A DNA stretch of 64,000 bases from Thermoplasmata archaeon (GCA_034667725.1 JAXDQS010000001.1:303846-367845), one strand, 5' to 3'; positions 1,825 to 31,123 are shown, counted from the stretch's first letter. Made by a program: numbers and translations. Notes: a model not told the origin generated them from the sequence alone.

Positions 1825-1892
1825 GACACGGATGGAACTGTCCCCCCTCCGGGCCTGACGGCCTGGCGCGCGGGCCCCAGGCAGGCCGACCC

Positions 1893-4106
1893 ATGCCCAC
1901 CACCCCCAGCTACCCAGGAGTCTACATCGAGGAGGTGCCCAGCGACGTCAAGACCATCGTGGGCGTCGCGACCGCCCGCACCGCCTTCGTCGGCCGCGCC
2001 CTGCGCGGGCCGCTGGACGAGCCGGTGCGCATCACCAGCTTCGGCGACTTCGAGCGCCGCTTCGGCGGCCTGTGGCGCGCGAGCACGCTTGGCTACGCCG
2101 TCCGGCAGTACTTCCAGAACGGCGGCGGCGACGCGGTCATCGTCCGGGTCTCGAATCCCGAACCGCAGAAGGACGCCAACGGCAACGTGCTGGTCGCGGA
2201 ACACGCCACCGCCACCGCCTCGCTCGGCCAGGCCACCACCGTGCGCTTCGAGGCGGCCACCGCGGGCGCCGGCGGCAACGGCATCACCGTCGCCATCTCG
2301 CGCAGCAGCGTGGCGGGCCAAGCCAACGACCCGGCCCGGTTCGACGCGGCCGTCACCGGCACCGACTCAAACGGCCACCCGGACACCCGCCAGTTCGCGG
2401 GCCGCACCCTTGCCCAGCTCCAAGGCAACCTGGCCAACGCCCAGTCCTACGTCACAATGCCCAGCGCTCCCGCAGGGGTCCTGCTGGAGCGCGCCACCGC
2501 CACGCTGGCAGGCGGCGCCGATGCCGTGGCCGCCTGGCAGGAGCTGAAGGCCGGTGCCAGCCCCGTCGCCATCCTGGAGGCCGTGACGCCCGGCGTGGCC
2601 GGCAACACCATCGCCGTCACCGTCGGCACCGCCACCGACGGCACCGGCGCCAAGTTCAACCTCACCATCTCCCAAGGCGCCACCTCGGTGGAGCTCGAGG
2701 ACCAGACGGCCGCCACCCTGGGCGCCGCCATCGCGGCCGACGCGACCGCCCAGGGCCTTGTCCGGCTTGCGACCGATTCTCCGACCAATCCGGTCGGCCG
2801 CCCGCCCAACGGCGGCCCGACGCCGCTTGCCGGCGGCGCCGACGCCAAGCCCGCGGGCGTGGACGCTGTTGGCTACGCCGACCCGCCGGGCGTCATGAAG
2901 CTCGAGGCCGCCAACCCCGGCCTCTGGGGCAACAGGCTGACGGCCACGGTGAACCACAAGGGCGAGCAGGCCGTCGCCGACGCCAAGAAGTTCAACCTGC
3001 TGCTGGAGGAGCGGGACGGCCGCGGCGACGTGGTGGCGCTCGAGGCGCACCTCAACGTCTCCGTGGACTCCGGCGACAAGCGGCGCGTCGACCGCGTCCT
3101 TGCGACCCAGTCGGCCTTTGCGCGCCTCGTGGACGGATTGCCCGCCGAGCGTCCGCCGGAGCGCACCCTGCTATGGTTCGCGGGCGGCGCCGACGGCCCC
3201 GACATCACGGACGCCCTGCTGCAGGGCAGCCCAGGCACCAAGACCGGCCTGTTCGCGCTCGAGAAGGAGGACCTGTTCAACATCCTCTGCATCCCGCCGC
3301 CCACCCGCGAGGGCGACGTCAAGGAGGCGACCTGGACGGTGGCGATGGGCTACTGCGAGAAGCGCCGCGCCATGCTGCTGGTGGACCCGCCGCGCGACGT
3401 GGAGAGCGTCGATGCGGCTCGCGCGGCCCTCGACTCGGGCCTCTTCAGCAAGCTGCGCCACCCGAACGTGGTGTTCAACTTCCCGCTGCTGGAGATGCCG
3501 GACCCGCTCATGGAGGACCGGCCCGAGAAGTTCGTCCCGAGCGCCGCCGTCGCGGGCCTCTACGCCCGCACCGACGCCGCCCGCGGCGTCTGGAAGGCCC
3601 CCGCCGGCCAGGAAGCCAGCCTGCGCGGCGTCCACAAGCTCGCCGTCAAGCTCACCGACCCCGAACACGGCTACCTCAACCCGCTCGGCCTCAACTGCGC
3701 CCGCACCTTCCCGGTGACGGGCACGGTGATGTGGGGCGCGCGCACCAGCCGCGGCGCCGACCAGCTTGCCTCCGAGTGGAAGTACGTCCCCGTGCGCCGC
3801 ACCGCGCTCTACATCGAGGAGACCCTGTTCCGCGGCACGCAATGGGTCGTGTTCGAGCCCAACGACGAGGACCTGTGGGCGCAAATCCGCCTCAACGTCG
3901 GCGCCTTCATGCACGACCTGTTCCGCAAGGGCGCGTTCCAGGGCGCCAGCGCCAAGGACGCCTACTTCGTCAAGTGCGACGGCGAGTCCACGCCCCAATC
4001 GGACATCGACAAGGGCATCGTCAACATCCTGGTGGGGTTCGCCCCGCTCAAGCCCGCCGAGTTCGTGTTCGTCAAACTCAGCCAGATGACCAAGCGAGGT
4101 GCCTAG
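1893..4106 (+). CDS. Contractile tail sheath protein (Afp2/3/4-like)
   Basis: N-terminal 'YPGVYIEEVPS', 'RGVWKAPAG', 'WGART', 'WKYVPVRR', 'WVVFEPN', C-terminal 'GFAPLKPAEFV'. Confidence 0.97.
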   Translation: MPTTPSYPGVYIEEVPSDVKTIVGVATARTAFVGRALRGPLDEPVRITSFGDFERRFGGLWRASTLGYAVRQYFQNGGGDAVIVRVSNPEPQKDANGNVLVAEHATATASLGQATTVRFEAATAGAGGNGITVAISRSSVAGQANDPARFDAAVTGTDSNGHPDTRQFAGRTLAQLQGNLANAQSYVTMPSAPAGVLLERATATLAGGADAVAAWQELKAGASPVAILEAVTPGVAGNTIAVTVGTATDGTGAKFNLTISQGATSVELEDQTAATLGAAIAADATAQGLVRLATDSPTNPVGRPPNGGPTPLAGGADAKPAGVDAVGYADPPGVMKLEAANPGLWGNRLTATVNHKGEQAVADAKKFNLLLEERDGRGDVVALEAHLNVSVDSGDKRRVDRVLATQSAFARLVDGLPAERPPERTLLWFAGGADGPDITDALLQGSPGTKTGLFALEKEDLFNILCIPPPTREGDVKEATWTVAMGYCEKRRAMLLVDPPRDVESVDAARAALDSGLFSKLRHPNVVFNFPLLEMPDPLMEDRPEKFVPSAAVAGLYARTDAARGVWKAPAGQEASLRGVHKLAVKLTDPEHGYLNPLGLNCARTFPVTGTVMWGARTSRGADQLASEWKYVPVRRTALYIEETLFRGTQWVVFEPNDEDLWAQIRLNVGAFMHDLFRKGAFQGASAKDAYFVKCDGESTPQSDIDKGIVNILVGFAPLKPAEFVFVKLSQMTKRGA

Positions 4107-4107
4107 A

Positions 4108-4632
4108 ATGGTTCAGTTCAGCGTCAACAGCCACCGGTTCGACCCGTACAAGAACTTCAAGTTCAAGGTGAAGTGGGACGGCGAGTACGTCGCCGGCATC
4201 AGCAAGGTCAGCGCCCTCAAGCGCACCACCGAGGTCGTCGAGCACCGCGAAGGCGGCGACCCCTCGAGCGGCCGCAAGAGCCCCGGCCGCACCAAGTTCG
4301 AGCCCATCACGCTGGAGCGCGGCGTCACCCACGACAAGGAGTTCGAGCAGTGGGCCAACAAGGTGTGGAACATCACCGGCGGCACCAGCGCCGAGACCAG
4401 CCTCAAGGACTTCCGCAAGGACCTGGTCATCGACGTATTCAACGAGGCCGGCCAGAAGGTGGTGTCCTACCGCGTCTACCGCGCCTGGGTGTCCGAGTTC
4501 CAGGCCCAGGCCGACCTCGACGCCAACGCCAACGCCGTCCTGATCCAGAGCATCAAGCTGGAGAACGAAGGCTGGCTGCGCGACGACGCCGTGGCCGAGC
4601 CCACCGAAGGCAGCTTCGTCCTGCCCGAGTGA
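4108..4632 (+). CDS. Tail tube protein (T4 gp19-like, Afp1/5-like)
   Basis: 'DPYKNFKFKV', 'HREGG', 'PGRTKFEPITLERG'; SD-like GAGGTG at 4096-4101 supports ATG 4108. Confidence 0.96.
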   Translation: MVQFSVNSHRFDPYKNFKFKVKWDGEYVAGISKVSALKRTTEVVEHREGGDPSSGRKSPGRTKFEPITLERGVTHDKEFEQWANKVWNITGGTSAETSLKDFRKDLVIDVFNEAGQKVVSYRVYRAWVSEFQAQADLDANANAVLIQSIKLENEGWLRDDAVAEPTEGSFVLPE

Positions 4633-5414
4633 GCCGCGTGGCGGGCGTGACGGTCCGTGTGCCGCACGGACTCTGGGACGACGGGGCTTGCCACAGGCAG
4701 GCCGTGCTGCACCCGCCCGGCTGGGAGGCCGTCGCCGCCTTGGCCGGCGCGGACCACCTGCCGGCGGCGGCGTGGACGACCCAGGTCCTGGCCGCCTGCG
4801 TCGAGCCGTTGCCGGGCCGCGACGTCCTGGCGACCGCCGCGGCATGGACCCTCGGCGACCGTGCCGCGCTGCTCCTGGAGGTCCACCGCCTGCTGACGGG
4901 CGGCCCGCTCGCCATCGTCGCCGACTGCCCGTCCTGCAAGGCCACCATGGAGGCCGAGCTCGGCCCCGACGACCTGCGGCCGCCCGAGCGCGCCTCCAGC
5001 CCTTGGCACGACACCACCGTCGCAGGCGTCCGGGTGCGGTTCCGCGTCCCGACCGGCGCCGACCTGGAGGCCGCCGACGGCACGGCGGGCGCGCTGCTGC
5101 GGCGCATCGTGCTGGCGCAGGACGGCGACGTGCCGGCGGACCTGCTGGAGGCGCACCTGTCCGACCAGGTGGCCGAGCTGGACCCGCAAGCCGAGATCCT
5201 GCTCGCGTTGGCGTGCCCCGCGTGCGCCGCCCCCGTGGACGCCCTGCTGGACCCCGTCGTCCACGTGCGCGCCGACCTCGCCCGCGCCGCCGAGCGCACC
5301 GCGCTGGAGGTCCATGGCCTCGCGCGCCACTACGGCTGGAGCGAGCAGGCCATCCTCGCGCTGCCGGCCGAGCGCCGGGCCCGCTACCTCGCCTTGGTCG
5401 GGGAGGCGCCATGA
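4629..5414 (+). CDS. Baseplate hub/tail assembly chaperone-like protein with CxxC pairs and a DUF6760-like C-terminus
   Basis: 'CPSC', 'FRVPTGADL', 'CPAC', 'EVHGLARHYGWSEQAILAL'; GTGA overlap with the tube stop. Confidence 0.7.
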   Translation: MSRVAGVTVRVPHGLWDDGACHRQAVLHPPGWEAVAALAGADHLPAAAWTTQVLAACVEPLPGRDVLATAAAWTLGDRAALLLEVHRLLTGGPLAIVADCPSCKATMEAELGPDDLRPPERASSPWHDTTVAGVRVRFRVPTGADLEAADGTAGALLRRIVLAQDGDVPADLLEAHLSDQVAELDPQAEILLALACPACAAPVDALLDPVVHVRADLARAAERTALEVHGLARHYGWSEQAILALPAERRARYLALVGEAP

Positions 5415-6517
5415 GCCTGCTCGCCCGCCTGGCGGCCCGCGGCGCCACCCCCGTCCGCGCCCTTGGCCGGGCGGCGCCTGCCGGCGCGCCCTGGGCCGCG
5501 GGCGCGGCGGAGGCGCCGGCGGCCGCGCCAGCCCCGGTGTCCACGCCAGCCCCAGCGCAGGCTGTCGTGCCCCGGACGCCTGTGCCTGAGCCTGCCCCCG
5601 TCCCTGGGATGTTGGCCGTCCCGGCGCAGGCAGCGCCGCCGGTGCCGTCGCCGCTTGCGGCCCCAACGGTCCCAGCGGGGCAAGCGGAGCCGGCGAGCGT
5701 GGCGGCCCTGGCCGCGCCGACGCCAACGGCGATGGCCATGCCGGCGCCGGAAATCGGCGGCGTGGACCCGCCTGCGCCGGCCGCGGTCGCGGCGGCGGCG
5801 CCCGCGCCGCGCCGGCAGGCCGGCCCGGCGCCCGCCGTCCAACCGCAACCCGGCCGGGCGGTCGCCACCGTTGCGGTGCCTGCCATAGCAAGCCGGCCGC
5901 AACCTAGCTTCAGGGAGGCGGCTGAGCGGGTAGAACAGTCGGGTCGCGCGGAACGCGCCGAACCCGCGGAACGCTCCGAGCGTGCCGAGCCTGCCGAGCG
6001 CGTCGAACGTGCCGAACGTTCCGAGCGCATCGACCCGCCCGCGCAGGCCCCGACGCCCGCCGGTCGCGTCGTGGCCAAGCCCACGCCGACGCCAGCGCCG
6101 AAGTCACCGCCGATGCCACCGCCGATGCTGGTGCCGACGCGGGCCGCCCCGCCCACGCCGTCCGCGCCTGCGCTGCCGGCTCCCGCCAAGCCCACGCCCA
6201 TGGCCGCGCCGGCCGCGCCTCCCGCACCGCGCCCAGCCGCCGTGGCCGCCCGGCCCGCCCCGGTCGCTGCTCGGCCGGCGCCGCCGTCCATGCCCGTCGC
6301 GCCCTGGGCGGCCGCGGCCGGCCGCGCCGCGGCTGCGCCGCCGGCGGCGGCCGGGGCGTCGCAGGCCCGGCCGCAAGTCCACGTGCGCATCGGGTCGGTC
6401 GAGCTGCGCGCGCCGCCCGCCGCGCCGGCGCCCGCGGCGCCGGCCCGCGCGCCGGCGGCGGCGCCCGACTTGGGCGGCTACGCGGCGCTGCGCAGCCATG
6501 CCTGGGGGGACCCTTGA
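5411..6517 (+). CDS. Pro/Ala-rich low-complexity eCIS-associated protein
   Basis: ATGA overlap and GGAGG upstream; C-terminal 'VHVRIGSVELRA' resembles a motif I recall in similar eCIS loci. Confidence 0.65.
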   Translation: MSLLARLAARGATPVRALGRAAPAGAPWAAGAAEAPAAAPAPVSTPAPAQAVVPRTPVPEPAPVPGMLAVPAQAAPPVPSPLAAPTVPAGQAEPASVAALAAPTPTAMAMPAPEIGGVDPPAPAAVAAAAPAPRRQAGPAPAVQPQPGRAVATVAVPAIASRPQPSFREAAERVEQSGRAERAEPAERSERAEPAERVERAERSERIDPPAQAPTPAGRVVAKPTPTPAPKSPPMPPPMLVPTRAAPPTPSAPALPAPAKPTPMAAPAAPPAPRPAAVAARPAPVAARPAPPSMPVAPWAAAAGRAAAAPPAAAGASQARPQVHVRIGSVELRAPPAAPAPAAPARAPAAAPDLGGYAALRSHAWGDP

Positions 6518-7857
6518 TGCTCCAGCAGCAGCACCAGATGCTGTCGGCGGTGACGCACACGCTGACGGAGCTGCTGAAGAAGCGCATGGCCAACCCGCCG
6601 GGGACCATCCAGAGCCTGCCGCCGGACGTCCAGGTCAAGGACCCGCCGGGGCCGAAGCGCCTCAACCTGTTCCTCTACCGCGTCGTCGAGAACCCGTTCT
6701 TGAAGAACCACGACGCCGGCGCGTCCGCGGGCAGCTTCGGCCGGCCGCCCCTGAGCCTCGACCTGCACTTCCTCATGACGGCGTACGGCGGCAGCGACGA
6801 GGACAGCAAGGGCGCCCAGGAGATCCTCGGCGACGCCATGGCGGTGTTCCACGACCACGCCATCGTGCGCGCGTCCGACCCGGCGTACGCCGACGTGCGC
6901 GACCCGTTGCTGGACGACGCGTTCGAGCATGTCCGCATCGGCCTGGAGCCCATCACGACGGAGGACCTGACGAAGGTGTGGACCTCGCTCACGGTCCCGT
7001 ACCGCCTGTCGGTCGCCTACGTGGTCACCGTGGCGCAGATCAAGAGCCGCACGCCCCGCAAGGCCGCGCCGCTGGTGCGCGGCGGCGACCGCGATTCCCG
7101 GCCGCTCTCGGGCCACGACGGGACCCCGGCGGCGGAGCTGGCGCGGATGGAGGGCCGCCGCCTCCAGGTGACGGCGTTCGAGCCGCCGGTGCTGGAGTCG
7201 GTGATGGTGCTGCGTCCCGGCGACCTGGACGACGCGCCGCCGCACGTGGCTTACGCCGCCATCGGCGACCGGCTGGTGCTGCGCGGCCGGAACCTCGGGC
7301 GGCCCCAAGCCGAGGGCGGGCAGCCCGCGTTCGTGCAGGTGGGCCCGCTCCGGCTCGCCGTGCCGCCGGCCACGCACGCGCCCAACCGCATCGTGATGCC
7401 GCTGCCCGACGACCCGGCCTTGCAAGCGGGGCCATGCAGCGTCCACGTCGCCGTCGAGCAGGGCAGCGGTCGCCTCCTGACCACCAACCGCCGGCCGGTG
7501 CTCGTCATCCCGTTCGTGGAGTCGGCGTGGAAGACGACGGCGCAGGTGCCCGACGAGGACAACCCCGCGCCGCCGGGCCAGCCGCAGCCGCAGAAGACCG
7601 TCGACGCCGTGGGCGTGCGCGGCACCCGGCTGTTCCGTCCGGGCGTCGAGTGCAGCACCATCCTGAGCGCCCCCGGCGGCGCGACCATCCAGGTCCCGGG
7701 CGAGCGCTACCTCGAGTGGCAGCCCGGCGGCGCCGGCCAGCCGCAGGAGATCCTGGTCCCGCTGCCGGCCGGCGTCGACGCCGCCGGCATGGGCGTCCGC
7801 GTCCTGGTGGACGGCCACGAGAACCTGCCCCGCCCCGGCCTGGAGGTGGCGCCGTGA
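6517..7857 (+). CDS. DUF4255/Pvc16 (Afp16-like) cap/terminator protein with C-terminal IPT/TIG-like extension
   Basis: 'LNLFLYRVVENP', 'PPLSLDLHFLMTAY', 'LTKVWTSL..PYRLSVAYVV'; later 'IGDRLVLRGRNL'. Confidence 0.88.
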   Translation: MLQQQHQMLSAVTHTLTELLKKRMANPPGTIQSLPPDVQVKDPPGPKRLNLFLYRVVENPFLKNHDAGASAGSFGRPPLSLDLHFLMTAYGGSDEDSKGAQEILGDAMAVFHDHAIVRASDPAYADVRDPLLDDAFEHVRIGLEPITTEDLTKVWTSLTVPYRLSVAYVVTVAQIKSRTPRKAAPLVRGGDRDSRPLSGHDGTPAAELARMEGRRLQVTAFEPPVLESVMVLRPGDLDDAPPHVAYAAIGDRLVLRGRNLGRPQAEGGQPAFVQVGPLRLAVPPATHAPNRIVMPLPDDPALQAGPCSVHVAVEQGSGRLLTTNRRPVLVIPFVESAWKTTAQVPDEDNPAPPGQPQPQKTVDAVGVRGTRLFRPGVECSTILSAPGGATIQVPGERYLEWQPGGAGQPQEILVPLPAGVDAAGMGVRVLVDGHENLPRPGLEVAP

Positions 7858-9917: not shown

Positions 9918-10174
9918 CGCCGACCGCCGACGAACTGACCGTCGTCGTGGACCGCATCGTGCTGGAGGACCCCAACGTCAGCCCCGAGCGCGCCCGCCGC
10001 ATCCACGACGGCGTCGAGCGCCGCGTCCAGGCCCTCCTGCAAGAACGCGCGTCGCCGCAGGGCCCCAGCCTCGCGCCGCCGCCCGGCGCGGACGACGAGG
10101 AGCTGGTGGACGCCGTCGCGCGCGCCGTCGTGGCCGCCGTCCGCCGGCAAGGAGGCCCCGATGGCGACGCGTGA
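9914..10174 (+). CDS. Small eCIS-associated hypothetical protein (86 aa)
   Basis: ATGA overlap with the ATPase; 'VVVDRIVLE' start; lies between ATPase and DUF4157 genes. Confidence 0.7.
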   Translation: MTPTADELTVVVDRIVLEDPNVSPERARRIHDGVERRVQALLQERASPQGPSLAPPPGADDEELVDAVARAVVAAVRRQGGPDGDA

Positions 10175-15932: not shown

Positions 15933-15935
15933 CCC

Positions 15936-23826: not shown

Positions 23827-26093
23827 CGACGCCCACGCCGCAGCGGCTGGTCCCCGACCTGCACGCGCTGCTGCCCACGGTCCACAAGCTGGAGGACGCG
23901 CGGCTGGGCGGGCCGCTGCAGGCGCTCCTCGACGTGATGTCGGCGCAGGGCGACCTGGTGCGGCGCGACATCGAGCTGCTGTGGGACAACCTGTTCATCG
24001 ACACCTGCGCCGACTGGGTCGTGCCTTACATCGGCGACCTGGTGGGCACCCGGCCGCTGCACGACGTCGACCAGGCGCGCCGCCGCGACGTGGCCCGCAC
24101 CATCGGCAACCGCCGCCGCAAGGGCGTGCTGCCCATGCTGGAGCAGCTGGCCAAGGACGTCACCGGCTGGCAGGTGCACGCCGTCGCCGAGTTCGAGCGG
24201 CTCGCCTGGACCCAGCACCTGGAGCACGTCCGCAGCCAAGGCCCGCCGCTGCGCTGGTCGATGCACGACGACCCGACGGCGTCGCTGGTCGCCGCCGCCG
24301 AGGTGCGCGATGCCGACCTCATGGACCGCGTCGGCGGCCCGTTCGACCAGACCGCCCGCACCATCGACGTCCGCCACGCCGTGCATGACCGCGTCCGGCC
24401 CCACGTCCGCAACGTCACGTTCCACGCCGAGCCGCACAAGGCCCTGGAGGTCAAGCGCGTCCTCGTGCATCCCGTCGAGCTGCCGGCCGGCCATCCGCAC
24501 CACGGCCGCGCCTTCCGCATCGGCCACCTCGGCGCCGACTTCCCGCTGTTCGCGCAGGCCAACCCGCCCGTGGGGCTGGGCGACCCGGACCCCACGCTGC
24601 CGCCCTTCCTGCCGGGCTCGCCGCTCCGTCCGCTCGCGGTCCACATCGACGTCGAGCAGGCCCGCCGCCGCTTCATGCACAAGGAGGGCGGCGCGTCCCA
24701 ATACATCGGCCCCGACCGCAGCCTCCAGTTCTGGTTCGGCGCCGCCGCCACCCCCGCCCACGAAATCCACGTCATGGACCTGTCCGACTGGGGCACGGTG
24801 ACGCTCCCGGACAACACGCTGGCGTCCCGGGTGCCGACCAAGCTGCGCTACGTCGACCGCAACGGCAAGCGCCTGCGCGGCAAGCCCCCCAAGGAAGGCG
24901 TGCAGGGCCCGCTGCTGCCCATCCTCCAAGTGGACTTGGCGCTCGACGTCACCACCGGCCGCATCATCCAGCGCAGCGGCGCGCGCCGGATGCGCGTCAC
25001 CTACCAGCGCGGTGTCGCGGCGCCCCTGGGCGGCGGCACCTACCACCGCGACGTGGCCGAGCCCCGCGGCCTGCCCTGGCAGGTCTCGATCCCGCAGCAC
25101 TACACCTCCCTTGGCACCGCGCTCAACGCCTGGGAGGCCGCGCGCGACGCCGAACTGGCCCAAGGCCGGCACCTCGACGGGCTCATCGAGCTCGACACCA
25201 ACGGCGTCCGCGACGCCTTCACCAGCATCCAGTTGGCCCCCGGCTGCGAGCTGGTGCTGCGCGCCGCCGACCTGCGCTGGCCCCACTTCCGCGGCCCCCT
25301 TCACATCCATGGCGCGAAGGACGCCAAGCTCACCCTGGATGGCGTCTGCATCCAGGACCAGTTGCGCATCGACGGCGAGGTCGAGCTCTTGGTGCGCCAC
25401 AGCGCCCTCGTGCCCGGCCTGCGGCTCCACGGCGACGGCTCGCCCGCCCACCCGCTGGCGCCAAGCATCGTGCCGGGCCCCAAGCTCGACCTGCGGCTGC
25501 GCATCGAGCACAGCGTCGTCGGCCCGCTGCGCCTGCCGCCCGAGGCCGCGACCGTCGAGGCCAGCGACAGCATCCTGCAGGCCCCCGAGCCGACGCCCGG
25601 CGAAGCCGGCGTCGCCTTCGAGGGGCCGCCGCTGCGGCTGGAACGCTGCACCGTCTTCGGCACGGTCCAGGCGCGCACCCTGCACGCCTCCGAGACCCTG
25701 TTCGTGGACCCCGTGGTCGTCGAACGGCGCCAGGAGGAGTGCGTGCGCTTCAGCCACGTGCCCGAGGGCAGCCTGACGCCCCGCAGGTTCCGCTGCCAGC
25801 CCGACCTTGCCGTCGCGGCGCTCGGGGACGCCGCCACCCCCGCCGACAAGGCCCGGCTTCGGGCCCGGATCGCGCCCGTCTTCCTGTCCCGCCGGTACGG
25901 CCATCCCGACCACGCCCGCCTCCACCCCGAAACGGACCCGGCCGTCCGCGAGGGCGCCGAGGACGGCGGCGAGATGGGCGCGCACCACCTGCTGCACGAC
26001 CCGCACCGTGAGCAGAACCTGGACGCCCGCATGGAGGAATACCTCCCCCTGGGGCGGCGGCACACCCTTGCGACTCCCGAGGCCCGACCATGA
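23823..26093 (+). CDS. P2 gpI/T4 gp7-like wedge protein with C-terminal beta-helix-like region
   Basis: 'LHALLP..HKLED', 'WDNLFIDTCADWVVPYIGDLVG', 'RRRKG', C-terminal 'F.SRRYGHP..ARL...GAEDGGEMGA'. Confidence 0.72.
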   Translation: MTTPTPQRLVPDLHALLPTVHKLEDARLGGPLQALLDVMSAQGDLVRRDIELLWDNLFIDTCADWVVPYIGDLVGTRPLHDVDQARRRDVARTIGNRRRKGVLPMLEQLAKDVTGWQVHAVAEFERLAWTQHLEHVRSQGPPLRWSMHDDPTASLVAAAEVRDADLMDRVGGPFDQTARTIDVRHAVHDRVRPHVRNVTFHAEPHKALEVKRVLVHPVELPAGHPHHGRAFRIGHLGADFPLFAQANPPVGLGDPDPTLPPFLPGSPLRPLAVHIDVEQARRRFMHKEGGASQYIGPDRSLQFWFGAAATPAHEIHVMDLSDWGTVTLPDNTLASRVPTKLRYVDRNGKRLRGKPPKEGVQGPLLPILQVDLALDVTTGRIIQRSGARRMRVTYQRGVAAPLGGGTYHRDVAEPRGLPWQVSIPQHYTSLGTALNAWEAARDAELAQGRHLDGLIELDTNGVRDAFTSIQLAPGCELVLRAADLRWPHFRGPLHIHGAKDAKLTLDGVCIQDQLRIDGEVELLVRHSALVPGLRLHGDGSPAHPLAPSIVPGPKLDLRLRIEHSVVGPLRLPPEAATVEASDSILQAPEPTPGEAGVAFEGPPLRLERCTVFGTVQARTLHASETLFVDPVVVERRQEECVRFSHVPEGSLTPRRFRCQPDLAVAALGDAATPADKARLRARIAPVFLSRRYGHPDHARLHPETDPAVREGAEDGGEMGAHHLLHDPHREQNLDARMEEYLPLGRRHTLATPEARP

Positions 26094-29000
26094 GCGACTT
26101 CACCCGCATCACCCACGACGCCACCAAGCACTACACCCGCGTCCTCCGGCAGCAAGGCCGCGTCGACCTCGACGCCGATTGGAACGAGGGCATGGACATC
26201 CAGGCCCACGAGCTGCGCACCCGCACCCTCGACGTGGTCGGCGCCGCCGGCGTCCCCGCCGACGCGCCCGGCTTCGGCGTCACCTACCAGCCCACCGCAG
26301 GCGCCCCTGACTTTGCCCTCAGCGCCGGCCGCCTCTACGTCGACGGCATCCTGGCCACGCTGGAGAAGCCCACCACGTACACCAAGCAGCCCGACCTCCA
26401 GCCCGCGCCGCTCTTGGCCCCCGCGGCCAACGCCCGCCACCTGCTCTACGCGCTGCTGTGGGAGCGCCACGTCACGGCCCACGTCGACGACAAGCTGCGC
26501 GAGCCCGCCCTCGACGGCCTCGACACCGCCACCCGCACCCGCACCATGGCGCAAGTGCGCTGGATGACGGCGCCCGAGCACTGCGCCACCGCCTCCGCCG
26601 AATGGGACGCGCTCACCCGCCCCACCGGCATGGGCCTGCACTGCCGCGGCGCGCCCGCGACCCCGGCCGCGACCCCGTGCGACGTGCAGCCCCGCCGCGG
26701 CTACCACGGCGGCGGCAACCGCCTGTACCGCGTCGAGATCCACGACGCCGGCCTGCCGTACCCGTTCGACCACGCCCAGGTCGAGGCGGTCGTCGCCACC
26801 GACGTCGGCGGCAACACCTACCAGATGGCCGACATCGGGCGCCCCTGGCAGCCCGGCGACGCGCTCGAGCTGTTCCAAAGCAACGGCACCGCCAGCGTCC
26901 TCACCGCCGTCCAGGCGGTCAACGGCAACCAGGTCAAGGTCGAGGCCCAGGTCAACGTCAGCCTGGACCGCGCCCGCCGGGTCGCGACCTACAAGTGGTC
27001 GCGCGACAACGGCTCCGTCGTCCTTGCGGTCACGGGCTTCCCGGACCCGGTCGCCCTGCCCCGCGCCGTGAGTGTCGCCCGCTTCGGGCGCGACCACGTG
27101 CTCGGCCTCCGGCCCGGCGACTGGGTCGAGGTCGTGAGCGACCAGACCGAGACCGCCCGCGGCCCAGGCACGATGGCGCAGGTCGTCAAGATCCACGAGG
27201 GCGACCTCCGCATCGACCTCGACCGCGACGTCGCCCACCACGCCGGCCAGGGCAGCCTCCGGCTGCGGCGCTGGGACGACGTGCAGGGCCTCCGCCCCGT
27301 GCGCGCCGACGCCGACGACACCACCACGACGTTCCTGGAGCTGGAGGACGACGTCGAAGTGCGCTTCAGGTCCGACGGCCACGCCGTGCGCAGCGGCGAC
27401 TGGTGGGCGTTCACCGCGCGCCGCTCCGGCGTGGCGGGCGACCCCGGCGACGTGCAGGACCTCCACGGCGCGCCCCCCGAAGGCCGCGTCCACGTCGCCC
27501 GCCTCGCCATCGTCGAGTGGGGCGTGCAGAGCGGCAACGCCTGGACGCCCATCCTCCACGACTGCCGCCGCCGCTTCCTCCCGCTCACCGAGCTGGACTC
27601 GCCGTGCCCGGCCACCAGCGTCGGCGACGGCACCACCAGCATCGGCCGGCACACGCACAACGCCGACTATCCATACGGCCTCCAGCAGGCCATCGACAGC
27701 CTCGACGCCGGCATGATCCACGTCCTGCCCGGCCGCTACGTGCTCCCCGACTCGCTGCGGCTACACAGCGGCATCACGCTGCAAGGCTGCGGCGACCGCT
27801 CCATCCTGGTGGCCCCCGCCGGCAAGCCCGCCGTCCTCGCCGCCAGCGTCGGCGAACCCATCACGGAGGTCGCGCTCGAGACCCTGCGCATCGAAGGCGC
27901 CGTCCGCTTCGAGCGGGTCGAGAAGGCCCGCGTCCAAGGCTGCACCGTCCTTGGCGCCGGCGATCCCGCCATCGTCGCGCGCGACGCCCGCTGGCTGCGC
28001 GTGCTCGACTGCCGCGTCGACGGCAGCCCCGCCCTCCACTTCCAGGCGGAGGACGCCACCGTCGCCACCAGCCGCGTGCGCGGCGCCATCCAGGTGAGCC
28101 GCGCCAGCAGCCGCGTCGACGTCACGCGCTGCGTGCTCCACCACGCCGACGGCCACGCCGTCGAGGTCGGCGGCGCGCCGCCCGCCCCGGGCGCCGGCGC
28201 CGTCGCGGTGGCCGACGCGCCCCCCAGCCGCGTCCGCGTCCACGCCAACCTGGTGCGGCGCGCCGGCAAGTGCGCGGTCTGGGCGGCGGCCGCGGCGGGC
28301 GACGGCGCGCACGGCCTCGCCATCGAGGACAACCGCATCCAGCAGTGCTGGGCCGGCGGCAGCGCGGCGCCCTACCTGTCGGCGGCCGTCCACGTCGAGC
28401 ACTGGGCCCGCGTCAGCATCCTCGGCAACGAGGTCACGGACAACGCCCGCACGATGGCTGGCGACGGCACGCCTGGCGTCCGCCTCGTGGCCTGCGAGGA
28501 CGTGGACCTCATGGGCAACCACGTCGCCAAGAACGGCGCCATGGGCCACGCCCCCGCCCTGATGGCCGTCGGCTGCGAACGGCTGCACGCCGCCCACAAC
28601 CACCTGCACGGCTGGGGCCGCATCGCCAGCAAGCCCGACGGCGCCCCCGCCCGCGTCGCGGTGGTGCTGCACGGCCGCGCCCTGCGGCTGCACGGCAACC
28701 GCGTCCGCGGCGGCGCGGTCCAGGTGCTGGACGGCTCCTCCGGCGTCCACGTCGAGGCCAACCACGTCGCCGACGGCGACGGGCCCGGCATCCACCTCGG
28801 CGGCGGCAAGGCGGCCAAAGGGGACACGAAGACCGTCGGCAAGACTCCCGTGGAAATCCCCCAGGTATTCTCATGGCCGACCTTTGGCGGGACGAAGACG
28901 AACCCGGCCATCCCCGCGCTCGGCGAGAACGCCAAGAAGGTGCCGGTCCGGAGCAGGAAAGTGGTGGCGGAGGAAGAACAGACGCCCCCCGCCCCCAGCA

Positions 29001-31123
29001 CGCGGGACGTCGTCGTCCGGCACAACCAGGTCGAGGCGATGCAGGGCAACGGCATCGAGGCCGTCGCCGCGACCGACGGCCTGGTGATCGAGGGGAACCT
29101 GGTGCGCGACTGCGTCTGGGTGGACCCCGTCGTGCCCGGCCCCGCCAGCATCTTCGTCGCCGCGGCCATCGGCCTGCGGCTGGCCGGCAACGTCGTGGCC
29201 GGCCTTGGCAGCAAGCTCGGCCCGCACGGCCGGGCCGGCATCCACCTGGAGGCGTGCCAGGAGGCGCACAGCCGCGACAACCGCGTCCACGACCCTTGGA
29301 CGGCGTTCCGGGCCAACGGCTGCATCGGCCTCGACCTGCAAGGCGAGCAGCTGGAGAGCATGGTGCTTGCGTTCACCGCGCGCGCCACCGGCCTGCGGTT
29401 GGCGGCCAGCGCCTTGGTGGGCAAGCTCCACGTGCGCGACGGGTCGGTGCGCCTCGTCCTCGAGGGCAACCGCGTCCAGGGCGGCGTCCATCTGGGCGGC
29501 CTGATCGAGGGCTTCGACACACTGGAGCACGCGTTCGGCGTGCATGACGTCCGCGTGGCCGGCAACGAGATCCGCGACACCCAAGGGCCCGGCCTCCAGA
29601 CCCCCGCCTGGGTGGACGGCGGCCCCACGGGCTCGGTCCACGGCCTCACGGTCGAGGACAACCTGGTGGCCGGCTGCGTGCTGTCCCCCGGCGAAGGCGC
29701 CCTGCAACTGCTTGGCGTCCAAGGACTGCGCGTGCACGGCAACCGCATCGTCGGCAACCCTGGCGCCGAAACGTGGGGCGGCTCCGTCGGCATCCTGGCG
29801 CACGCCTGCCTCGCCGTCGATCTGCAACGCAACGAGGTCGCCGGCAGCGGCGGCCTCGCCATCACGGGCTGCCTCCCCAGCCCCGGCTTCGCCCCCTCCG
29901 ACGACGGCCCCGCGCTCGTGGTGCAAGGCAACACCGTGACCGCCCCCGCCGGCCCCGCCCTTGTCGCCACCGGCCTGGGGGCCGCGTCGATCCGCGGCAA
30001 CAGCCTCGCCAGCCTGGCGCCCCACCCGAACGACGGCCACGTCGGCTCCTGCGTCGACATCCAGTTCCCCGGCAGCGACCCGCTGCGGGGCCTCATGCTG
30101 CCCACCCTGAGCGTCCCCGGCCGCCGCCTCGCCGTGAACCACCACCTGGAGCACTACACGCGCACCTACGACCCCGCGTCCGCGTTCCAAGGCCAGCCCT
30201 TCATGGAGGCCCGCGTCCCCGGCCGCGTCCAGTTCAGCGGCAACCAGGTCGTCCAGCACGCCACCGGCGCCACCACCGCCGCCACCGTCGCCATCGCCGC
30301 CGGCACCGACCTCGCCTTCCAGGACAACCAGGTCCACACCCGCAACCCCGGCGGCTTCACCAGCGCCGCCGTGCTCGCCTACGCCCCCGACGCCCGCCTC
30401 ACCGGCAACGCCATCGAGGAGCTGCCGTGGGGCGCCGCCTGGTCCGCCGCGGTGATGGCGCACCGGCCCGTGCTGGCCGCCAACCACCTGACCCACTGCC
30501 ACCACCCCAACAAGCTCAGCGACGCCCCCGCCGGCGCCCTCAGCATCAACCTGGTGCAGGTCGCGACCCGGTGCGGGACGCAAAAAAGCGGGCCCGAGCA
30601 CGGGCAGCTGCTCGATACCGAGAAGCGCCTGCGCGCGGCCTGGCGCGAGGCGGTGCGCGCAGCGCACGCCGTCGCCGGCCGGCACGCGGCGCGGCTCGAG
30701 CGCAGCGTGGCCCACCTGCCGCAGGACGCGTTGCGCGGCCGGCTGGAGGCCAAGCGCCAGGCGATGGCCGACACCGAGGCGGTGCTGGCGGTCGCCGTGG
30801 ACCGCTGCCGCTGGATGGCGGCCGACCCGCCGGCCAGCGTGGACGGCTGGGCGATCGTCGGCCGCGTCCGGCACGACGCTGCGCCGGTGGGGCCGGTGCG
30901 AATCCGCCTGGTGCGGGCCATCGGCGGCAACGAGTTCGCGACCACCGGCTTCGAGGCGACCGTCGACGCCAACCAGGACTTCCGCATGGAGGCCTGCGGC
31001 ACCCGGGGCAGCACCTACGAGCTGGAGGTGCGCGACGGCGACGACGGGCTGGTGCACCGGACCAAGCTGGAGCTGGCCGGCGACGCCGGCCGGCGCGACG
31101 TGGTGGAGCTCGCCACCAGGTGA
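26090..31123 (+). CDS. DUF6519-domain protein with long right-handed beta-helix (tail fibre/spike-like)
   Basis: 'QQGRVDLDADWNE', 'GRLYVDGIL', 'NRLYRVEIH', 'KWSRDNGS', 'GDWWAFTAR', then many 'xxxGNxV' parallel beta-helix repeats. Confidence 0.85.
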   Translation: MSDFTRITHDATKHYTRVLRQQGRVDLDADWNEGMDIQAHELRTRTLDVVGAAGVPADAPGFGVTYQPTAGAPDFALSAGRLYVDGILATLEKPTTYTKQPDLQPAPLLAPAANARHLLYALLWERHVTAHVDDKLREPALDGLDTATRTRTMAQVRWMTAPEHCATASAEWDALTRPTGMGLHCRGAPATPAATPCDVQPRRGYHGGGNRLYRVEIHDAGLPYPFDHAQVEAVVATDVGGNTYQMADIGRPWQPGDALELFQSNGTASVLTAVQAVNGNQVKVEAQVNVSLDRARRVATYKWSRDNGSVVLAVTGFPDPVALPRAVSVARFGRDHVLGLRPGDWVEVVSDQTETARGPGTMAQVVKIHEGDLRIDLDRDVAHHAGQGSLRLRRWDDVQGLRPVRADADDTTTTFLELEDDVEVRFRSDGHAVRSGDWWAFTARRSGVAGDPGDVQDLHGAPPEGRVHVARLAIVEWGVQSGNAWTPILHDCRRRFLPLTELDSPCPATSVGDGTTSIGRHTHNADYPYGLQQAIDSLDAGMIHVLPGRYVLPDSLRLHSGITLQGCGDRSILVAPAGKPAVLAASVGEPITEVALETLRIEGAVRFERVEKARVQGCTVLGAGDPAIVARDARWLRVLDCRVDGSPALHFQAEDATVATSRVRGAIQVSRASSRVDVTRCVLHHADGHAVEVGGAPPAPGAGAVAVADAPPSRVRVHANLVRRAGKCAVWAAAAAGDGAHGLAIEDNRIQQCWAGGSAAPYLSAAVHVEHWARVSILGNEVTDNARTMAGDGTPGVRLVACEDVDLMGNHVAKNGAMGHAPALMAVGCERLHAAHNHLHGWGRIASKPDGAPARVAVVLHGRALRLHGNRVRGGAVQVLDGSSGVHVEANHVADGDGPGIHLGGGKAAKGDTKTVGKTPVEIPQVFSWPTFGGTKTNPAIPALGENAKKVPVRSRKVVAEEEQTPPAPSTRDVVVRHNQVEAMQGNGIEAVAATDGLVIEGNLVRDCVWVDPVVPGPASIFVAAAIGLRLAGNVVAGLGSKLGPHGRAGIHLEACQEAHSRDNRVHDPWTAFRANGCIGLDLQGEQLESMVLAFTARATGLRLAASALVGKLHVRDGSVRLVLEGNRVQGGVHLGGLIEGFDTLEHAFGVHDVRVAGNEIRDTQGPGLQTPAWVDGGPTGSVHGLTVEDNLVAGCVLSPGEGALQLLGVQGLRVHGNRIVGNPGAETWGGSVGILAHACLAVDLQRNEVAGSGGLAITGCLPSPGFAPSDDGPALVVQGNTVTAPAGPALVATGLGAASIRGNSLASLAPHPNDGHVGSCVDIQFPGSDPLRGLMLPTLSVPGRRLAVNHHLEHYTRTYDPASAFQGQPFMEARVPGRVQFSGNQVVQHATGATTAATVAIAAGTDLAFQDNQVHTRNPGGFTSAAVLAYAPDARLTGNAIEELPWGAAWSAAVMAHRPVLAANHLTHCHHPNKLSDAPAGALSINLVQVATRCGTQKSGPEHGQLLDTEKRLRAAWREAVRAAHAVAGRHAARLERSVAHLPQDALRGRLEAKRQAMADTEAVLAVAVDRCRWMAADPPASVDGWAIVGRVRHDAAPVGPVRIRLVRAIGGNEFATTGFEATVDANQDFRMEACGTRGSTYELEVRDGDDGLVHRTKLELAGDAGRRDVVELATR

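What the first reader, a model, noticed from the sequence alone, without database searches (positions are those of the whole stretch)
1893..31123. Complete, intact contractile injection system operon in a high-GC archaeal chromosome
Seen: 19 co-oriented, uninterrupted ORFs cover the recognisable eCIS parts (sheath, tube, Pvc16 cap, Afp15 ATPase, tube initiator/LysM, hub, spike, PAAR-like tip, gp25, two J, gpI-like, DUF6519 fibre). They sit ~300 bp from rpl21e-rpo4-DUF655 on the same contig as radA and archaeal uS12. Known: this gene set defines Afp/PVC/MAC-type eCIS; archaeal loci have been noted bioinformatically (haloarchaea, Methanosarcinales), and I know of little functional work on them. 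Inference: the host looks like a high-GC Thermoplasmatota-type archaeon, for which I know of no described eCIS. Host-like codon usage, a TATA-type promoter and no mobility genes suggest a domesticated, expressed archaeal injection machine.
Basis: partly seen in the sequence, partly recalled or inferred. Interest (0 to 1): 0.92.

Follow-up and report, generated by a model that had tools for sequence, protein, structure and literature searches.

The report
Bacterial-type injection machine in an archaeon
An uncultured high-GC soil archaeon carries a complete, intact 19-gene phage-tail-like "molecular syringe". It was acquired from bacteria separately from the known haloarchaeal systems and has since taken on the host's codon usage and promoter type, so it is a known kind of machine in a host group where none has been described.

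Summary
Window 1893-31123 carries 19 tightly coupled, intact + strand genes that cover every core part of an Afp/PVC-like contractile injection system (CIS). The flanks are archaeal: L21e, RpoF, DUF655, DUF531, RadA and uS12.

A sister genome has the two flanking genes about 200 bp apart, so the locus is a 29.5-kb insertion. A 112-kb metagenome contig carries both junctions, which makes a chimera very unlikely.

The nearest relatives are bacterial (Thermoleophilaceae, Pseudomonadota, Streptomyces and Rhizobiales megaplasmids) and are collinear gene for gene. Haloarchaeal CIS form a separate, well-supported sheath clade, so this is a separate bacteria-to-archaea transfer.

Only 3 of 401 sampled genomes of the host phylum have the cap gene, all in this one family. 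Synonymous codon usage matches the host and differs from the closest bacterial loci. A TATA-like box and a hairpin plus T5 run bracket the operon.

Gene organisation (split Afp8, two Afp11, PAAR-like gene) fits published subtype IIa/IIc.

Expression, mode of action (released or cell-bound) and the Thermoplasmatota label were not testable here.

Verdict: a new member of a known kind, in a new host lineage. Earlier notes of this scan (unchecked) report comparable CIS in other archaeal phyla (Thorarchaeota, Methanosuratincola).

The parts
1815..1824 (+). TATA-like box TTTAATAAAA, 69-78 nt upstream of the sheath ATG; candidate archaeal promoter of the operon
   Evidence: One of only two 10-mers with at least 9 A/T bases in the 64-kb window; the other lies in front of uS12. 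Absent from the empty site in G003. The 37-kb Thermoleophilaceae locus has no such box and uses a Shine-Dalgarno sequence instead.
1893..4106 (+). g1 sheath (737 aa), with a variable insert of roughly 200 aa
   Evidence: Pfam Phage_sheath_1 and 1C. Best solved relatives are 9EZM (H. borinquense Cis2, E 1e-70) and 8BKY/8BL4 (Streptomyces Cis2).
4108..4632 (+). g2 inner tube (174 aa)
   Evidence: Phage_T4_gp19 E 3.5e-46 and TIGR02241. 74-79% identical to bacterial loci.
4629..5414 (+). g3 T4_baseplate (PF12322)-like protein with two CxxC pairs; probable hub or baseplate assembly factor
   Evidence: Pfam PF12322 E 0.028. ESM Atlas feature score 0.95 and structural TM 0.85 to PF12322 clusters. Conserved at the same position in bacterial loci.
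5411..6517 (+). g4 Ala/Pro-rich disordered protein with a conserved C-terminal motif; candidate length ruler. The start is uncertain: the JGI gene call begins at about 5732.
   Evidence: Sequence. The C-terminal V/I-x-I-G-x-V/I-E-V ... G-F/Y-x-x-Y/F-A motif is shared with the positional equivalents in G414, G008 and G416. JGI gene call.
6517..7857 (+). g5 tube/sheath cap (Afp16/Pvc16-like, 446 aa)
   Evidence: Pvc16_N E 6e-40.
7854..9917 (+). g6 Afp15-like AAA+ ATPase with an N-terminal winged helix
   Evidence: WHD E 6e-26 and AAA E 9e-26.
9914..10174 (+). g7 small protein (86 aa), no family found
   Evidence: Coding signal. No Pfam, NCBIfam or PHROG hit.
10161..14018 (+). g8 candidate cargo (1285 aa): charged tandem-repeat N-terminus, DUF4157 with HELVH (293-297), His-Me-finger-like motif (D495 H496 E499 N511 N520), then a long beta-meander C-terminus
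   Evidence: eCIS_core E 3e-28. HNH E 0.022, below threshold. 921 cluster representatives share the ~820-aa module. Invariant residues. AF2 models with pLDDT 78 and 83 show a beta-beta-alpha unit.
14015..14971 (+). g9 TPR protein (318 aa); possibly a chaperone or adaptor
   Evidence: TPR families. SycD/LcrH-type hits below threshold. Not found in the related loci compared.
14968..15651 (+). g10 tube-initiator-like protein (Afp7-like)
   Evidence: CIS_tube E 1.5e-7.
15651..15932 (+). g11 tail protein X-like (LysM-like) protein
   Evidence: 36% identity over 58 aa (pairwise E 3e-9) to the gene that PGAP names 'tail protein X', at the same position in the Streptomyces europaeiscabiei plasmid locus.
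15936..17042 (+). g12 baseplate hub (gp27/gpD half of a split Afp8)
   Evidence: Phage_GPD E 3e-8 and VgrG_rel.
17039..17605 (+). g13 spike (gp5/gpV half of a split Afp8)
   Evidence: Phage_base_V E 1.7e-23.
17605..17946 (+). g14 PAAR-like tip (DUF4280-like)
   Evidence: DUF4280 E 0.0046, below threshold. 44-46% identical homologs at the same position in G416 and G008.
17946..18305 (+). g15 gp25 wedge protein
   Evidence: GPW_gp25 E 2.8e-15.
18302..20704 (+). g16 Afp11/gp6-like baseplate protein, copy 1
   Evidence: TIGR02243 E 1.3e-55.
20701..23826 (+). g17 Afp11/gp6-like baseplate protein, copy 2
   Evidence: Baseplate_J E 1.7e-7 and TIGR02243 E 1e-62.
23823..26093 (+). g18 gpI/Mu gp48-like peripheral baseplate protein
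   Evidence: Phage_Mu_Gp48 E 0.0049, weak. 31-34% identical positional homologs.
26090..31123 (+). g19 tail fibre: DUF6519 (eBAP5) baseplate-attachment domain, right-handed beta-helix, and a C-terminal ~440 aa of unknown family
   Evidence: DUF6519 E 2e-40, Beta_helix E 5e-15, NosD. eBAP5 is described as a fibre attachment domain in PMC12923769.
31197..31215 (+). short hairpin (CAGCA...TGCTG) followed by T5; candidate terminator of the operon
   Evidence: One of only two T5 runs on the + strand of the window, 88 nt after g19's stop.

Best explanation
This is a genuine, intact lineage-II Afp/PVC-like CIS operon resident in an archaeal chromosome.

Origin and history. It came from bacteria by horizontal transfer, independently of the haloarchaeal CIS lineage. 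It has been in the host long enough to take on the host's synonymous codon bias, a TATA-type promoter and an oligo-T terminator.

Inferred working, from family knowledge:
- A baseplate forms from the hub g12, spike g13, PAAR-like tip g14, gp25 g15, two gp6-like proteins g16/g17 and the gpI-like g18. The gp51-like g3 probably helps assembly.
- g10 and g11 start the tube.
- Tube g2 and sheath g1 polymerise, perhaps along the disordered g4 acting as a ruler, and g5 caps them.
- The AAA+ ATPase g6 assists assembly or cargo loading.
- Fibres (g19, an eBAP5 anchor plus a beta-helix) bind a surface glycan on a target cell.
- Sheath contraction then drives the spike, and probably the DUF4157 protein g8 (metallopeptidase-like HExxH plus a His-Me-finger nuclease-like motif), into the target.

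Mode of action. Release of free particles is favoured (about 50-55%) over a cell-bound mode, because a fibre gene is present and no membrane anchor is encoded.

Shown: gene content, intactness, archaeal context, the insertion, phylogenetic placement, codon amelioration.
Inferred: promoter use, assembly roles, cargo identity, mode of action, target.
For: - Gene set and intactness.
- Archaeal flanks.
- Position in the assembly: the window lies 304 kb into a 368-kb contig of a MAG that is 90% complete with 0.7% contamination.
- Empty site: in congener G003 the thioesterase and L21e are about 200 bp apart.
- Junctions: both lie on one 112-kb JGI contig.
- Relatives: the Thermoleophilaceae locus is collinear at 34-74% identity, and a Streptomyces europaeiscabiei plasmid has the same parts.
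- Sheath trees: G000 falls in a 9-row clade (support 100/100) that is otherwise bacterial. Haloarchaea are separated from it by branches with 100/99 support.
- Rarity: the cap gene occurs in 3 of 32 genomes of the family and 3 of 401 of the phylum sample.
- Codon usage: locus genes fall at the 17th to 98th percentile of host genes. They share the host's C-ending bias, unlike the G-ending bias of the Thermoleophilia loci.
- Transcription signals: TATA-like box and T5 terminator.
- Mode of action: fibre domain, and no TM segment in any of the 19 proteins by hydropathy scan.
- g8: features. A precedent exists for a CIS-loaded DUF4157 nuclease effector, Tme (PMC11126660).
Against: - No expression or particle data. 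Read-level checks of the junctions were not possible.
- The JGI contig may come from the same sample as the MAG, so it is not an independent assembly.
- The locus is the most GC-rich 29-kb stretch of the genome (74.4% against 71.2 +/- 1.4). This comes from first codon positions, which reflects amino-acid composition.
- g8's module is conserved in 921 clusters. That fits a standard component of this CIS type better than a variable toxin. Its nuclease fold is not confirmed by fold searches.
- The closest solved sheaths by sequence belong to cell-bound or cytoplasmic systems: H. borinquense and Streptomyces.
- No lysis genes that could release particles are present.
Confidence: 0.8

Rival explanations
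1. The same machine works cell-bound or inside the cytoplasm. It could act like the haloarchaeal T6SS-like CIS, or like the Streptomyces cytoplasmic CIS that kills its own cell under stress, and not as a released particle.
For: The closest solved sheaths are H. borinquense Cis2 (9EZM) and Streptomyces Cis2 (8BKY), and both systems are cell-associated (PMC11566945, PMC10066040). No lysis cassette is present in or beside the locus. The only archaeal CIS studied so far works in a T6SS-like way.
Against: No protein with a TM segment is encoded in the locus, whereas both precedents depend on a linked membrane protein: Hbor_38620 with six TM helices, or CisA/Sco4242. A large eBAP5 fibre with a beta-helix is present; the Streptomyces systems lack a conventional tail fibre. 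The sheath tree places the locus away from haloarchaea.
Confidence: 0.3
2. The locus is a silent or decaying horizontally acquired island with no current function in the archaeon.
For: Distribution is patchy, 3 of 32 genomes in the family. There is no expression evidence. The slot upstream of L21e varies within the genus: G005 has a different insert of about 9.7 kb there.
Against: All 19 genes are intact across 29 kb. Codon usage is fully host-like and differs from the nearest bacterial loci. Translationally coupled junctions are kept. A host-type TATA box and terminator are present.
Confidence: 0.1
3. The locus is bacterial DNA wrongly joined to archaeal DNA during assembly or binning.
For: The closest homologs are all bacterial. 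The locus has the highest GC of any 29-kb stretch in the genome. The read-level check could not be run.
Against: Two misjoins would have to fall exactly between two genes that are adjacent in a sister genome. Both junctions lie inside long contigs in two assembly records. Synonymous codon usage is the host's and differs from that of the nearest bacterial loci. A congener (G008) also carries a CIS, inside a contig that is syntenic with G000.
Confidence: 0.03
4. The locus is the tail module of a defective archaeal myovirus prophage, or a tailocin, and not an Afp/PVC-type CIS.
For: All parts are phage-tail homologs. Several genes have only weak or no family hits: g3, g4, g7, g18.
Against: The eCIS markers Pvc16_N cap, Afp15-type AAA+ ATPase, DUF4157 and DUF6519 are all present. 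No PHROG hits were found for the nine locus proteins tested, which include g3, g4, g7 and g18. There are no head, terminase, integrase or lysis genes in the flanks. The locus is collinear with bacterial eCIS loci.
Confidence: 0.03

Closest known systems
Uncharacterised lineage-II eCIS loci of soil bacteria: a Thermoleophilaceae MAG (contig CAVZGG010000025.1), the Streptomyces europaeiscabiei plasmid NZ_CP109155.1, and Rhizobium, Ensifer and Novosphingobium megaplasmids
   Same: Same parts, collinear in the Thermoleophilaceae MAG: sheath, tube, gp51-like, Ala/Pro-rich protein, cap, ATPase, DUF4157 protein(s), tube initiator, tail X, hub, spike, PAAR-like, gp25, two Afp11, gpI-like, DUF6519 fibre. 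In the Streptomyces plasmid the baseplate and fibre block is inverted and the DUF4157 gene lies upstream of the sheath. Identity to the Thermoleophilaceae locus is 34-74%.
   Different: The host is an archaeon. The operon has a TATA-like box in place of the bacterial upstream region, and it has the host's C-ending codon bias. The g7 and g9 (TPR) genes have no detected counterpart in the compared loci.
eCIS subtypes IIa/IIc of dbeCIS (Chen et al. 2019, PMC6899500)
   Same: Afp8 is split into gp27-like and gp5-like ORFs, there are two Afp11 copies, a PAAR-like gene is present, and no Afp14-type tape measure is recognisable. Archaeal members of both subtypes were already recorded.
   Different: The subtype could not be fixed without dbeCIS reference sequences. 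The sheath tree separates this locus from haloarchaea (IIa), which points to IIc by elimination. That step is an inference.
Haloarchaeal T6SS-like CIS of Halogeometricum borinquense (Zachs et al. 2024, PMC11566945; sheath 9EZM)
   Same: An archaeal host, a bacterial origin proposed for the cluster, and the best-scoring solved sheath by sequence.
   Different: A different sheath clade; tube only about 31% identical and no g3 homolog. No Hbor_38620-like six-TM anchor. A different host phylum: the cap gene was found in 3 of 401 genomes of this phylum's sample, all in one family.
Streptomyces davawensis CIS with the effector Tme (Nagakubo et al. 2024, PMC11126660)
   Same: It belongs to a CIS clade spread across distant phyla. 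It has a DUF4157 protein that co-purifies with the baseplate and carries a His-Me/H-N-N type nuclease. This is the best precedent for g8 as cargo.
   Different: Tme has 2247 aa, TM helices, a tape-measure-like region and a C-terminal EndA-type nuclease. g8 has 1285 aa, no TM helix, a mid-protein HNH-like motif and a beta-meander C-terminus. Whether the two CIS belong to the same clade was not tested.
Streptomyces coelicolor cytoplasmic CIS (subtype IId; PMC10066040, PMC10020575; 8BKY)
   Same: High-scoring sheath similarity and the same core parts.
   Different: IId has a single contiguous Afp8 and one Afp11, lacks a conventional fibre, and uses the TM adaptor Sco4242/CisA. None of this holds here.

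Membership tests
Afp/PVC-like contractile injection system (eCIS superfamily; Chen 2019, Geller 2021) | Sheath and inner tube genes | tested here: met
   Phage_sheath_1 and 1C; Phage_T4_gp19 E 3.5e-46.
Afp/PVC-like contractile injection system (eCIS superfamily; Chen 2019, Geller 2021) | Afp16/Pvc16-type cap and Afp15-type AAA+ ATPase, which set eCIS apart from phage tails, pyocins and T6SS | tested here: met
   Pvc16_N E 6e-40; WHD plus AAA at about E 1e-25 each.
Afp/PVC-like contractile injection system (eCIS superfamily; Chen 2019, Geller 2021) | Baseplate core: Afp7-like initiator, Afp8 spike/hub, gp25, Afp11 (gp6/J) | tested here: met
   CIS_tube, Phage_GPD, Phage_base_V, GPW_gp25, Baseplate_J/TIGR02243 twice.
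Afp/PVC-like contractile injection system (eCIS superfamily; Chen 2019, Geller 2021) | DUF4157 (eCIS_core) marker domain in the locus | tested here: met
   PF13699 E 3e-28 in g8, with HELVH at residues 293-297. It is the only copy in the genome.
Afp/PVC-like contractile injection system (eCIS superfamily; Chen 2019, Geller 2021) | No capsid, terminase or replication genes attached to the tail module | tested here: met
   The flanks encode LVIVD, GNAT and a thioesterase on one side and L21e, RpoF and DUF655 on the other. No PHROG hits for the nine locus proteins tested.
Afp/PVC-like contractile injection system (eCIS superfamily; Chen 2019, Geller 2021) | Particles are released and act outside the cell | not testable with these tools
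   Only indirect evidence: a fibre gene is present and no TM anchor is encoded.
eCIS subtype IIa/IIc (Chen 2019) | Afp8 split into separate gp27-like and gp5-like ORFs | tested here: met
   g12 (Phage_GPD) and g13 (Phage_base_V) are separate, overlapping ORFs. Criterion.
eCIS subtype IIa/IIc (Chen 2019) | Two Afp11 copies | tested here: met
   g16 and g17 both match TIGR02243 (E 1e-55 and 1e-62).
eCIS subtype IIa/IIc (Chen 2019) | PAAR-type tip gene (afp10) present | tested here: inconclusive
   The DUF4280 match (E 0.0046) is below Pfam's cut-off. The position and 44-46% identical homologs in related loci support it.
eCIS subtype IIa/IIc (Chen 2019) | Placement in the Afp11 tree with dbeCIS reference loci | not tested
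   No dbeCIS reference sequences were on hand. My sheath tree shows only separation from haloarchaea (IIa).
Haloarchaeal T6SS-like CIS (Zachs 2024) | Linked multi-pass membrane anchor (Hbor_38620-like, six TM helices) | tested here: not met
   A Kyte-Doolittle scan (19-aa window, threshold 1.8) found no TM-like segment in 18 of the 19 locus proteins. The one exception is a single window at position 1021 of the 1677-aa fibre g19.
Haloarchaeal T6SS-like CIS (Zachs 2024) | Belongs to the haloarchaeal CIS clade | tested here: not met
   Eight haloarchaeal sheaths form their own 99* clade on the other side of 100*-supported branches. The split has 100/99 support in the careful tree.
Streptomyces-type cytoplasmic CIS (subtype IId) | Single contiguous Afp8 and a single Afp11 | tested here: not met
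   Afp8 is split and there are two Afp11 copies. Criterion.
His-Me finger (HNH) nuclease, for the middle domain of g8 | Beta-beta-alpha metal finger with a catalytic His and metal-binding Asn/His | tested here: inconclusive
   Pfam HNH E 0.022 (15.3 bits against a cut-off of 21.4). D495, H496, E499, N511 and N520 are invariant or nearly invariant in 40 homologs. The AF2 model has strand-strand-helix at that spot. In Foldseek, HNH nucleases are frequent among the weak hits, but none has E below 1. VIA-align gave Z of 3.3 or less, driven by the long helix.

The most novel reading that the evidence does not exclude
This would be the first archaeal CIS that works as a free, fibre-targeted extracellular particle, unlike the membrane-docked haloarchaeal type. 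An uncultured soil archaeal lineage would have captured it from soil bacteria and naturalised it. The archaeon would then use it against neighbouring bacteria, fungi or archaea by injecting a conserved DUF4157 and His-Me nuclease protein.
Probability: 0.3. Interest if true: 0.7.

Novelty: new member of a known kind. Interest (0 to 1): 0.45.

Why it matters
Published surveys place archaeal CIS in one archaeal phylum. The one functional study covers only haloarchaea and names methanogens and ANME as unexplored carriers.

This locus shows that a different, bacterial-soil type of CIS entered another archaeal lineage on its own. It stayed long enough to be recoded to the host's codon bias and placed under an archaeal-type promoter. 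That pattern argues it is used, and not just carried.

It also offers a compact, complete and intact 29-kb operon that could be expressed heterologously. This would allow three questions to be asked:
- Can an archaeon make and release free injection particles?
- What do the beta-helix fibres bind?
- What does the very widespread but unstudied DUF4157 and HNH-like protein family (921 clusters) do?

The host is uncultured, so none of this can be tested in the organism itself for now.

Tried and rejected
- Exact look-up of my L21e call: not on record, probably because of a different start codon. The DUF655 look-up gave the same contig instead.
- att-like direct or inverted repeats across the two junctions: nothing of 10 nt or more. 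No tRNA gene in the window. Site-specific integration is therefore not supported.
- Word-indexed homolog search for g8's middle region: it found only g8 itself. The exhaustive search then found 921 relatives.
- Names for g8 relatives: only 'hypothetical protein'.
- Fold searches of g8: the whole module gave only weak LptD/VDAC-like local matches (TM 0.14-0.2). The N-terminal 180 aa gave no match with E below 1 and Z of 3.3 or less.
- PHROGs for nine locus proteins: no hits. PDB sequence search for g3: nothing.
- g4 against its positional equivalent in the Streptomyces plasmid locus: no significant BLASTP match, as expected for low-complexity sequence.
- Sco4256-type effector for g8: rejected, because its architecture differs (chaperone-like domain, TM region and lectin domain).
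- G021's cap gene as a third archaeal case: it sits on a 4-kb contig with only 27-29% identity, so its archaeal origin cannot be checked.
- One or two acquisitions in the genus: G000 and G008 pair only weakly (60/58), so this stays unresolved.
- Paper PMC6509191 (Makarova 2019, archaeal conflict systems): not held.
- Search for the JGI sample number in papers: no hits.
Full report
**1. What is in the sequence**

The window has about 74% GC, so raw ORF lists are full of false frames. A codon-position GC model and inspection of start codons give 19 genes on the + strand from 1893 to 31123. Nearly every junction is an ATGA or GTGA overlap or a gap of 3 nt or less. This is the signature of one translationally coupled operon.

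Pfam and NCBIfam name the following:
- g1 sheath, g2 gp19-type tube
- g5 Pvc16_N cap, g6 winged-helix plus AAA+ ATPase
- g8 eCIS_core (DUF4157) protein of 1285 aa, g9 TPR protein
- g10 CIS_tube protein, g12 GPD hub, g13 gpV spike
- g14 DUF4280-like (PAAR-like) protein, below threshold
- g15 gp25, g16 and g17 (two TIGR02243/Baseplate_J proteins)
- g18 Mu gp48/gpI-like protein, weak
- g19, a 1677-aa protein with DUF6519 followed by a right-handed beta-helix

**2. The genes without a family**

- g3 has two CxxC pairs. It gives a weak Pfam match to T4_baseplate (PF12322, E 0.028). The ESM Atlas places it with PF12322 clusters (feature score 0.95, structural TM 0.85).
- g4 is an Ala/Pro-rich, low-complexity protein with a weak coding signal. 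Its positional equivalents in three other loci are equally Ala/Pro-rich and share a C-terminal V/I-x-I-G-x-V/I-E-V ... G-F/Y-x-x-Y/F-A motif. It is therefore a real, conserved gene and the best candidate for the length ruler that lineage-II systems appear to lack.
- g11 matches the gene that PGAP calls 'tail protein X' at the same position in a Streptomyces plasmid locus (36% over 58 aa).
- g7 (86 aa) stays unexplained.

**3. The host is an archaeon and the locus is an insertion**

Downstream lie L21e, Rpb4/RpoF, DUF655, DUF531, Sua5, PurE, FtsZ, enolase, RadA and uS12. Upstream lie an LVIVD protein, a GNAT acetyltransferase and a thioesterase. The window sits 304 kb into a 368-kb contig of a 2.32-Mb MAG that is 90% complete with 0.7% contamination.

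In the congener G003 the thioesterase gene and L21e are about 200 bp apart. The window's left and right junctions align with the two sides of that empty site. A 112-kb JGI metagenome contig carries citrate synthase, LVIVD, GNAT, thioesterase and sheath at one end of the locus, and g18, g19, L21e, RpoF, DUF655 and on to FtsZ at the other. A chimera would need two misjoins exactly between two genes that are neighbours in a sister genome. I rate that at about 3%.

There are no direct repeats across the junctions, no tRNA, and no integrase or transposase. The slot upstream of L21e varies within the genus. G005 holds a different insert of about 9.7 kb there, encoding surface proteins and a regulator.

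**4. Where it came from**

A scan of one genome per prokaryotic species with the sheath protein returned bacterial loci as the best matches. A Thermoleophilaceae MAG scored 56%, followed by Betaproteobacteria, Burkholderiales, Myxococcota, Nitrospirota and others. Haloarchaea reached only 37-40%.

The Thermoleophilaceae locus is collinear gene for gene:

| Gene | Identity to G000 |
|---|---|
| sheath | 51-56% |
| tube | 74% |
| g3 | 39% |
| cap | 36% |
| ATPase | 50% |
| hub | 48% |
| gp25 | 56% |
| g16 | 39% |
| g17 | 33-44% |
| g18 | 34% |
| fibre N-terminus | 42-46% |

Cultured soil bacteria carry the same type on megaplasmids: Streptomyces europaeiscabiei, Rhizobium, Ensifer, Novosphingobium and Mycobacterium.

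In sheath trees, G000 lies in a 9-row clade (support 100/100) that is otherwise bacterial, inside a 32-row bacterial clade. Eight haloarchaeal sheaths form their own clade on the far side of branches with 100/99 support. This is therefore a transfer from bacteria that is separate from the one behind the haloarchaeal systems.

**5. Distribution in the host lineage**

The cap family Pvc16_N was found in 3 of 32 genomes of the host's GTDB family. It was found in 3 of 401 genomes sampled across the phylum (50 families, 162 genera), and these are the same three.

The congener G008 has a divergent CIS (sheath 49%, tube 67%, ATPase 44%) at a different place. It lies inside an accessory stretch of at least 60 kb, on a contig that is otherwise syntenic with G000. 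G000 and G008 pair only weakly on the tree (60/58), so one old gain or two separate gains cannot be told apart. The third case, G021, is a 4-kb contig and cannot be verified.

**6. Signs of long residence**

The locus is the most GC-rich 29-kb stretch of the genome (74.4% against 71.2 +/- 1.4). This comes from first codon positions, which reflects amino-acid content. GC3 is 0.967 in the locus against 0.964 in host genes.

Synonymous choices match the host to within 0.03 for Arg, Leu, Gly, Ala, Pro, Thr and Val. The 14 locus genes long enough for the gene caller fall at the 17th to 98th percentile of 1494 host genes. The closest bacterial loci differ: they prefer G-ending codons (GCG, CCG, ACG, GTG), where host and locus prefer C-ending ones. 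'Host-like codon usage' is thus both true and informative.

Only two 10-mers in the 64-kb window have at least 9 A/T bases. TTTAATAAAA lies 69-78 nt before the sheath ATG, and TTTTATAAT lies before uS12. The bacterial relative has a Shine-Dalgarno sequence and no such box. Only two T5 runs occur on the + strand, and one follows a short hairpin 88 nt after g19's stop. The operon is therefore bracketed by host-type start and stop signals. Their use is inferred, not shown.

**7. How it probably works**

The parts list is that of an Afp/PVC-like CIS. By the criteria of Chen et al. 2019, a split Afp8, two Afp11 copies and a PAAR-type gene mean subtype IIa or IIc, and both already include archaeal loci. 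Haloarchaea are IIa and are separate on my tree, so IIc is the likelier label. I could not test that without reference sequences.

g19's DUF6519 is the published 'eBAP5' baseplate-attachment domain of eCIS fibres, which often carry C-terminal beta-helix pectin-lyase folds. None of the 19 proteins has a TM-like segment by hydropathy scan. By contrast, the haloarchaeal T6SS-like mode and the Streptomyces cytoplasmic mode both rely on a linked membrane protein. I therefore favour release of free particles (about 50-55%) over a cell-bound mode (about 30%). There are no lysis genes, and the nearest solved sheaths belong to cell-bound systems, so the question remains open.

**8. The candidate cargo, g8**

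g8 has four parts, from N- to C-terminus:
- A charged, repetitive N-terminus, with tandem 48-nt repeats at 10512-10742.
- DUF4157 with an HELVH motif at residues 293-297.
- A stretch with D495, H496, E499, N511 and N520. These are invariant or nearly invariant in 40 homologs. The stretch gives a sub-threshold HNH hit (E 0.022) and folds as strand-strand-helix in AF2 models (pLDDT 78 and 83).
- A long antiparallel beta-meander with no close solved relative.

The ~820-aa module after DUF4157 occurs in 921 cluster representatives, and most are proteins of 1150-1300 aa. It is thus a standard, unstudied component of this CIS type and not a variable toxin. Fold searches did not confirm the nuclease fold.

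The best precedent is Tme of Streptomyces davawensis. Tme is a DUF4157 protein that co-purifies with the baseplate and has an H-N-N endonuclease domain. Its architecture differs from g8's. Geller et al. noted that DUF4157 sits at the N-terminus of eCIS toxins, often ahead of a very long 'linker'. g8's conserved module may be such a 'linker'.

**9. Novelty**

None of the CIS surveys and studies I read mentions Thermoplasmatota. A full-text search pairing that name with 'contractile injection' found only two incidental mentions. The surveys of isolate genomes and of MAGs each report a single archaeal phylum.

The phylum label for this genome comes from unchecked notes of this scan. I show only that the host is an archaeon whose phylum otherwise lacked the cap gene in the sample. 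Other notes of this scan report comparable CIS in Thorarchaeota and Methanosuratincola, so such finds in new archaeal groups are recurring.

The machine itself is a common bacterial type. I class the finding as a new member of a known kind and give it moderate interest (0.45).

Noticed in passing
G008:C11 about 66000-126000 (loci L122, L104, L105): A sister genome carries a divergent CIS (sheath 49%, tube 67% identical) inside an accessory stretch of at least 60 kb with lower GC (about 62-64% beside the CIS). Apart from the CIS genes, that stretch has almost no counterpart in G000. Beyond 126 kb the contig is syntenic with G000 contig C3.
   Followed up: partly
L098 (G005:C14) 1557-11317: At the same slot between GNAT and L21e, G005 has a different insert of about 9.7 kb. 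It encodes an HTH regulator, a BNR/Ig-domain protein, two FG-GAP proteins (one also with an expansin-C-like domain) and a DUF4382 protein, with no mobility genes. The region upstream of L21e is thus a variable slot in this genus. In most congeners a Pus10-like gene lies there, and in G000 that gene sits on contig C4.
   Followed up: partly
window 46493-50338 (+): A 1281-aa protein with N-terminal DUF4332 and helix-hairpin-helix domains, followed by long, strongly A-over-T-skewed tandem repeats (66-135 nt units, Lys/Glu/Pro-rich). It lies just upstream of radA.
   Followed up: no
window 52058-56305 (-): A very large (1415 aa) protein with two multicopper-oxidase domains far apart (residues about 360-464 and 1107-1212). 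The rest has no family.
   Followed up: no
window 36841-38457 (-), 40263-41561 (-), 43076-44257 (+): Three proteins around ftsZ and enolase that appear to be secreted: two with BNR/sortilin-like domains (one of these also has TSP3 repeats) and one with TSP3 repeats only.
   Followed up: no
window 10512-10742: The N-terminus of g8 holds four to five tandem copies of a 48-nt unit (a 16-aa EPVQKKTEAGAEK-type repeat). This explains the strong A-over-T skew of 10-12 kb. The region is charged and probably disordered, like the N-terminal packaging regions of PVC cargo (this comparison is from my own knowledge).
   Followed up: partly
window about 2150-2900 (inside g1): The sheath has an extra segment of roughly 200-250 aa, with short Thr/Gly/Asn/Pro-rich repeats, that relatives lack or vary. 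tblastn hits split at residues about 154 and 335. It is probably a surface-exposed insertion domain.
   Followed up: no
L124 (G021:C379, 4041 bp): The third cap-gene hit in the family is on a 4-kb contig of a 590-contig, 4.2-Mb MAG, and is only 27-29% identical to g5/g6. It may be a different CIS type or a mis-binned contig.
   Followed up: partly
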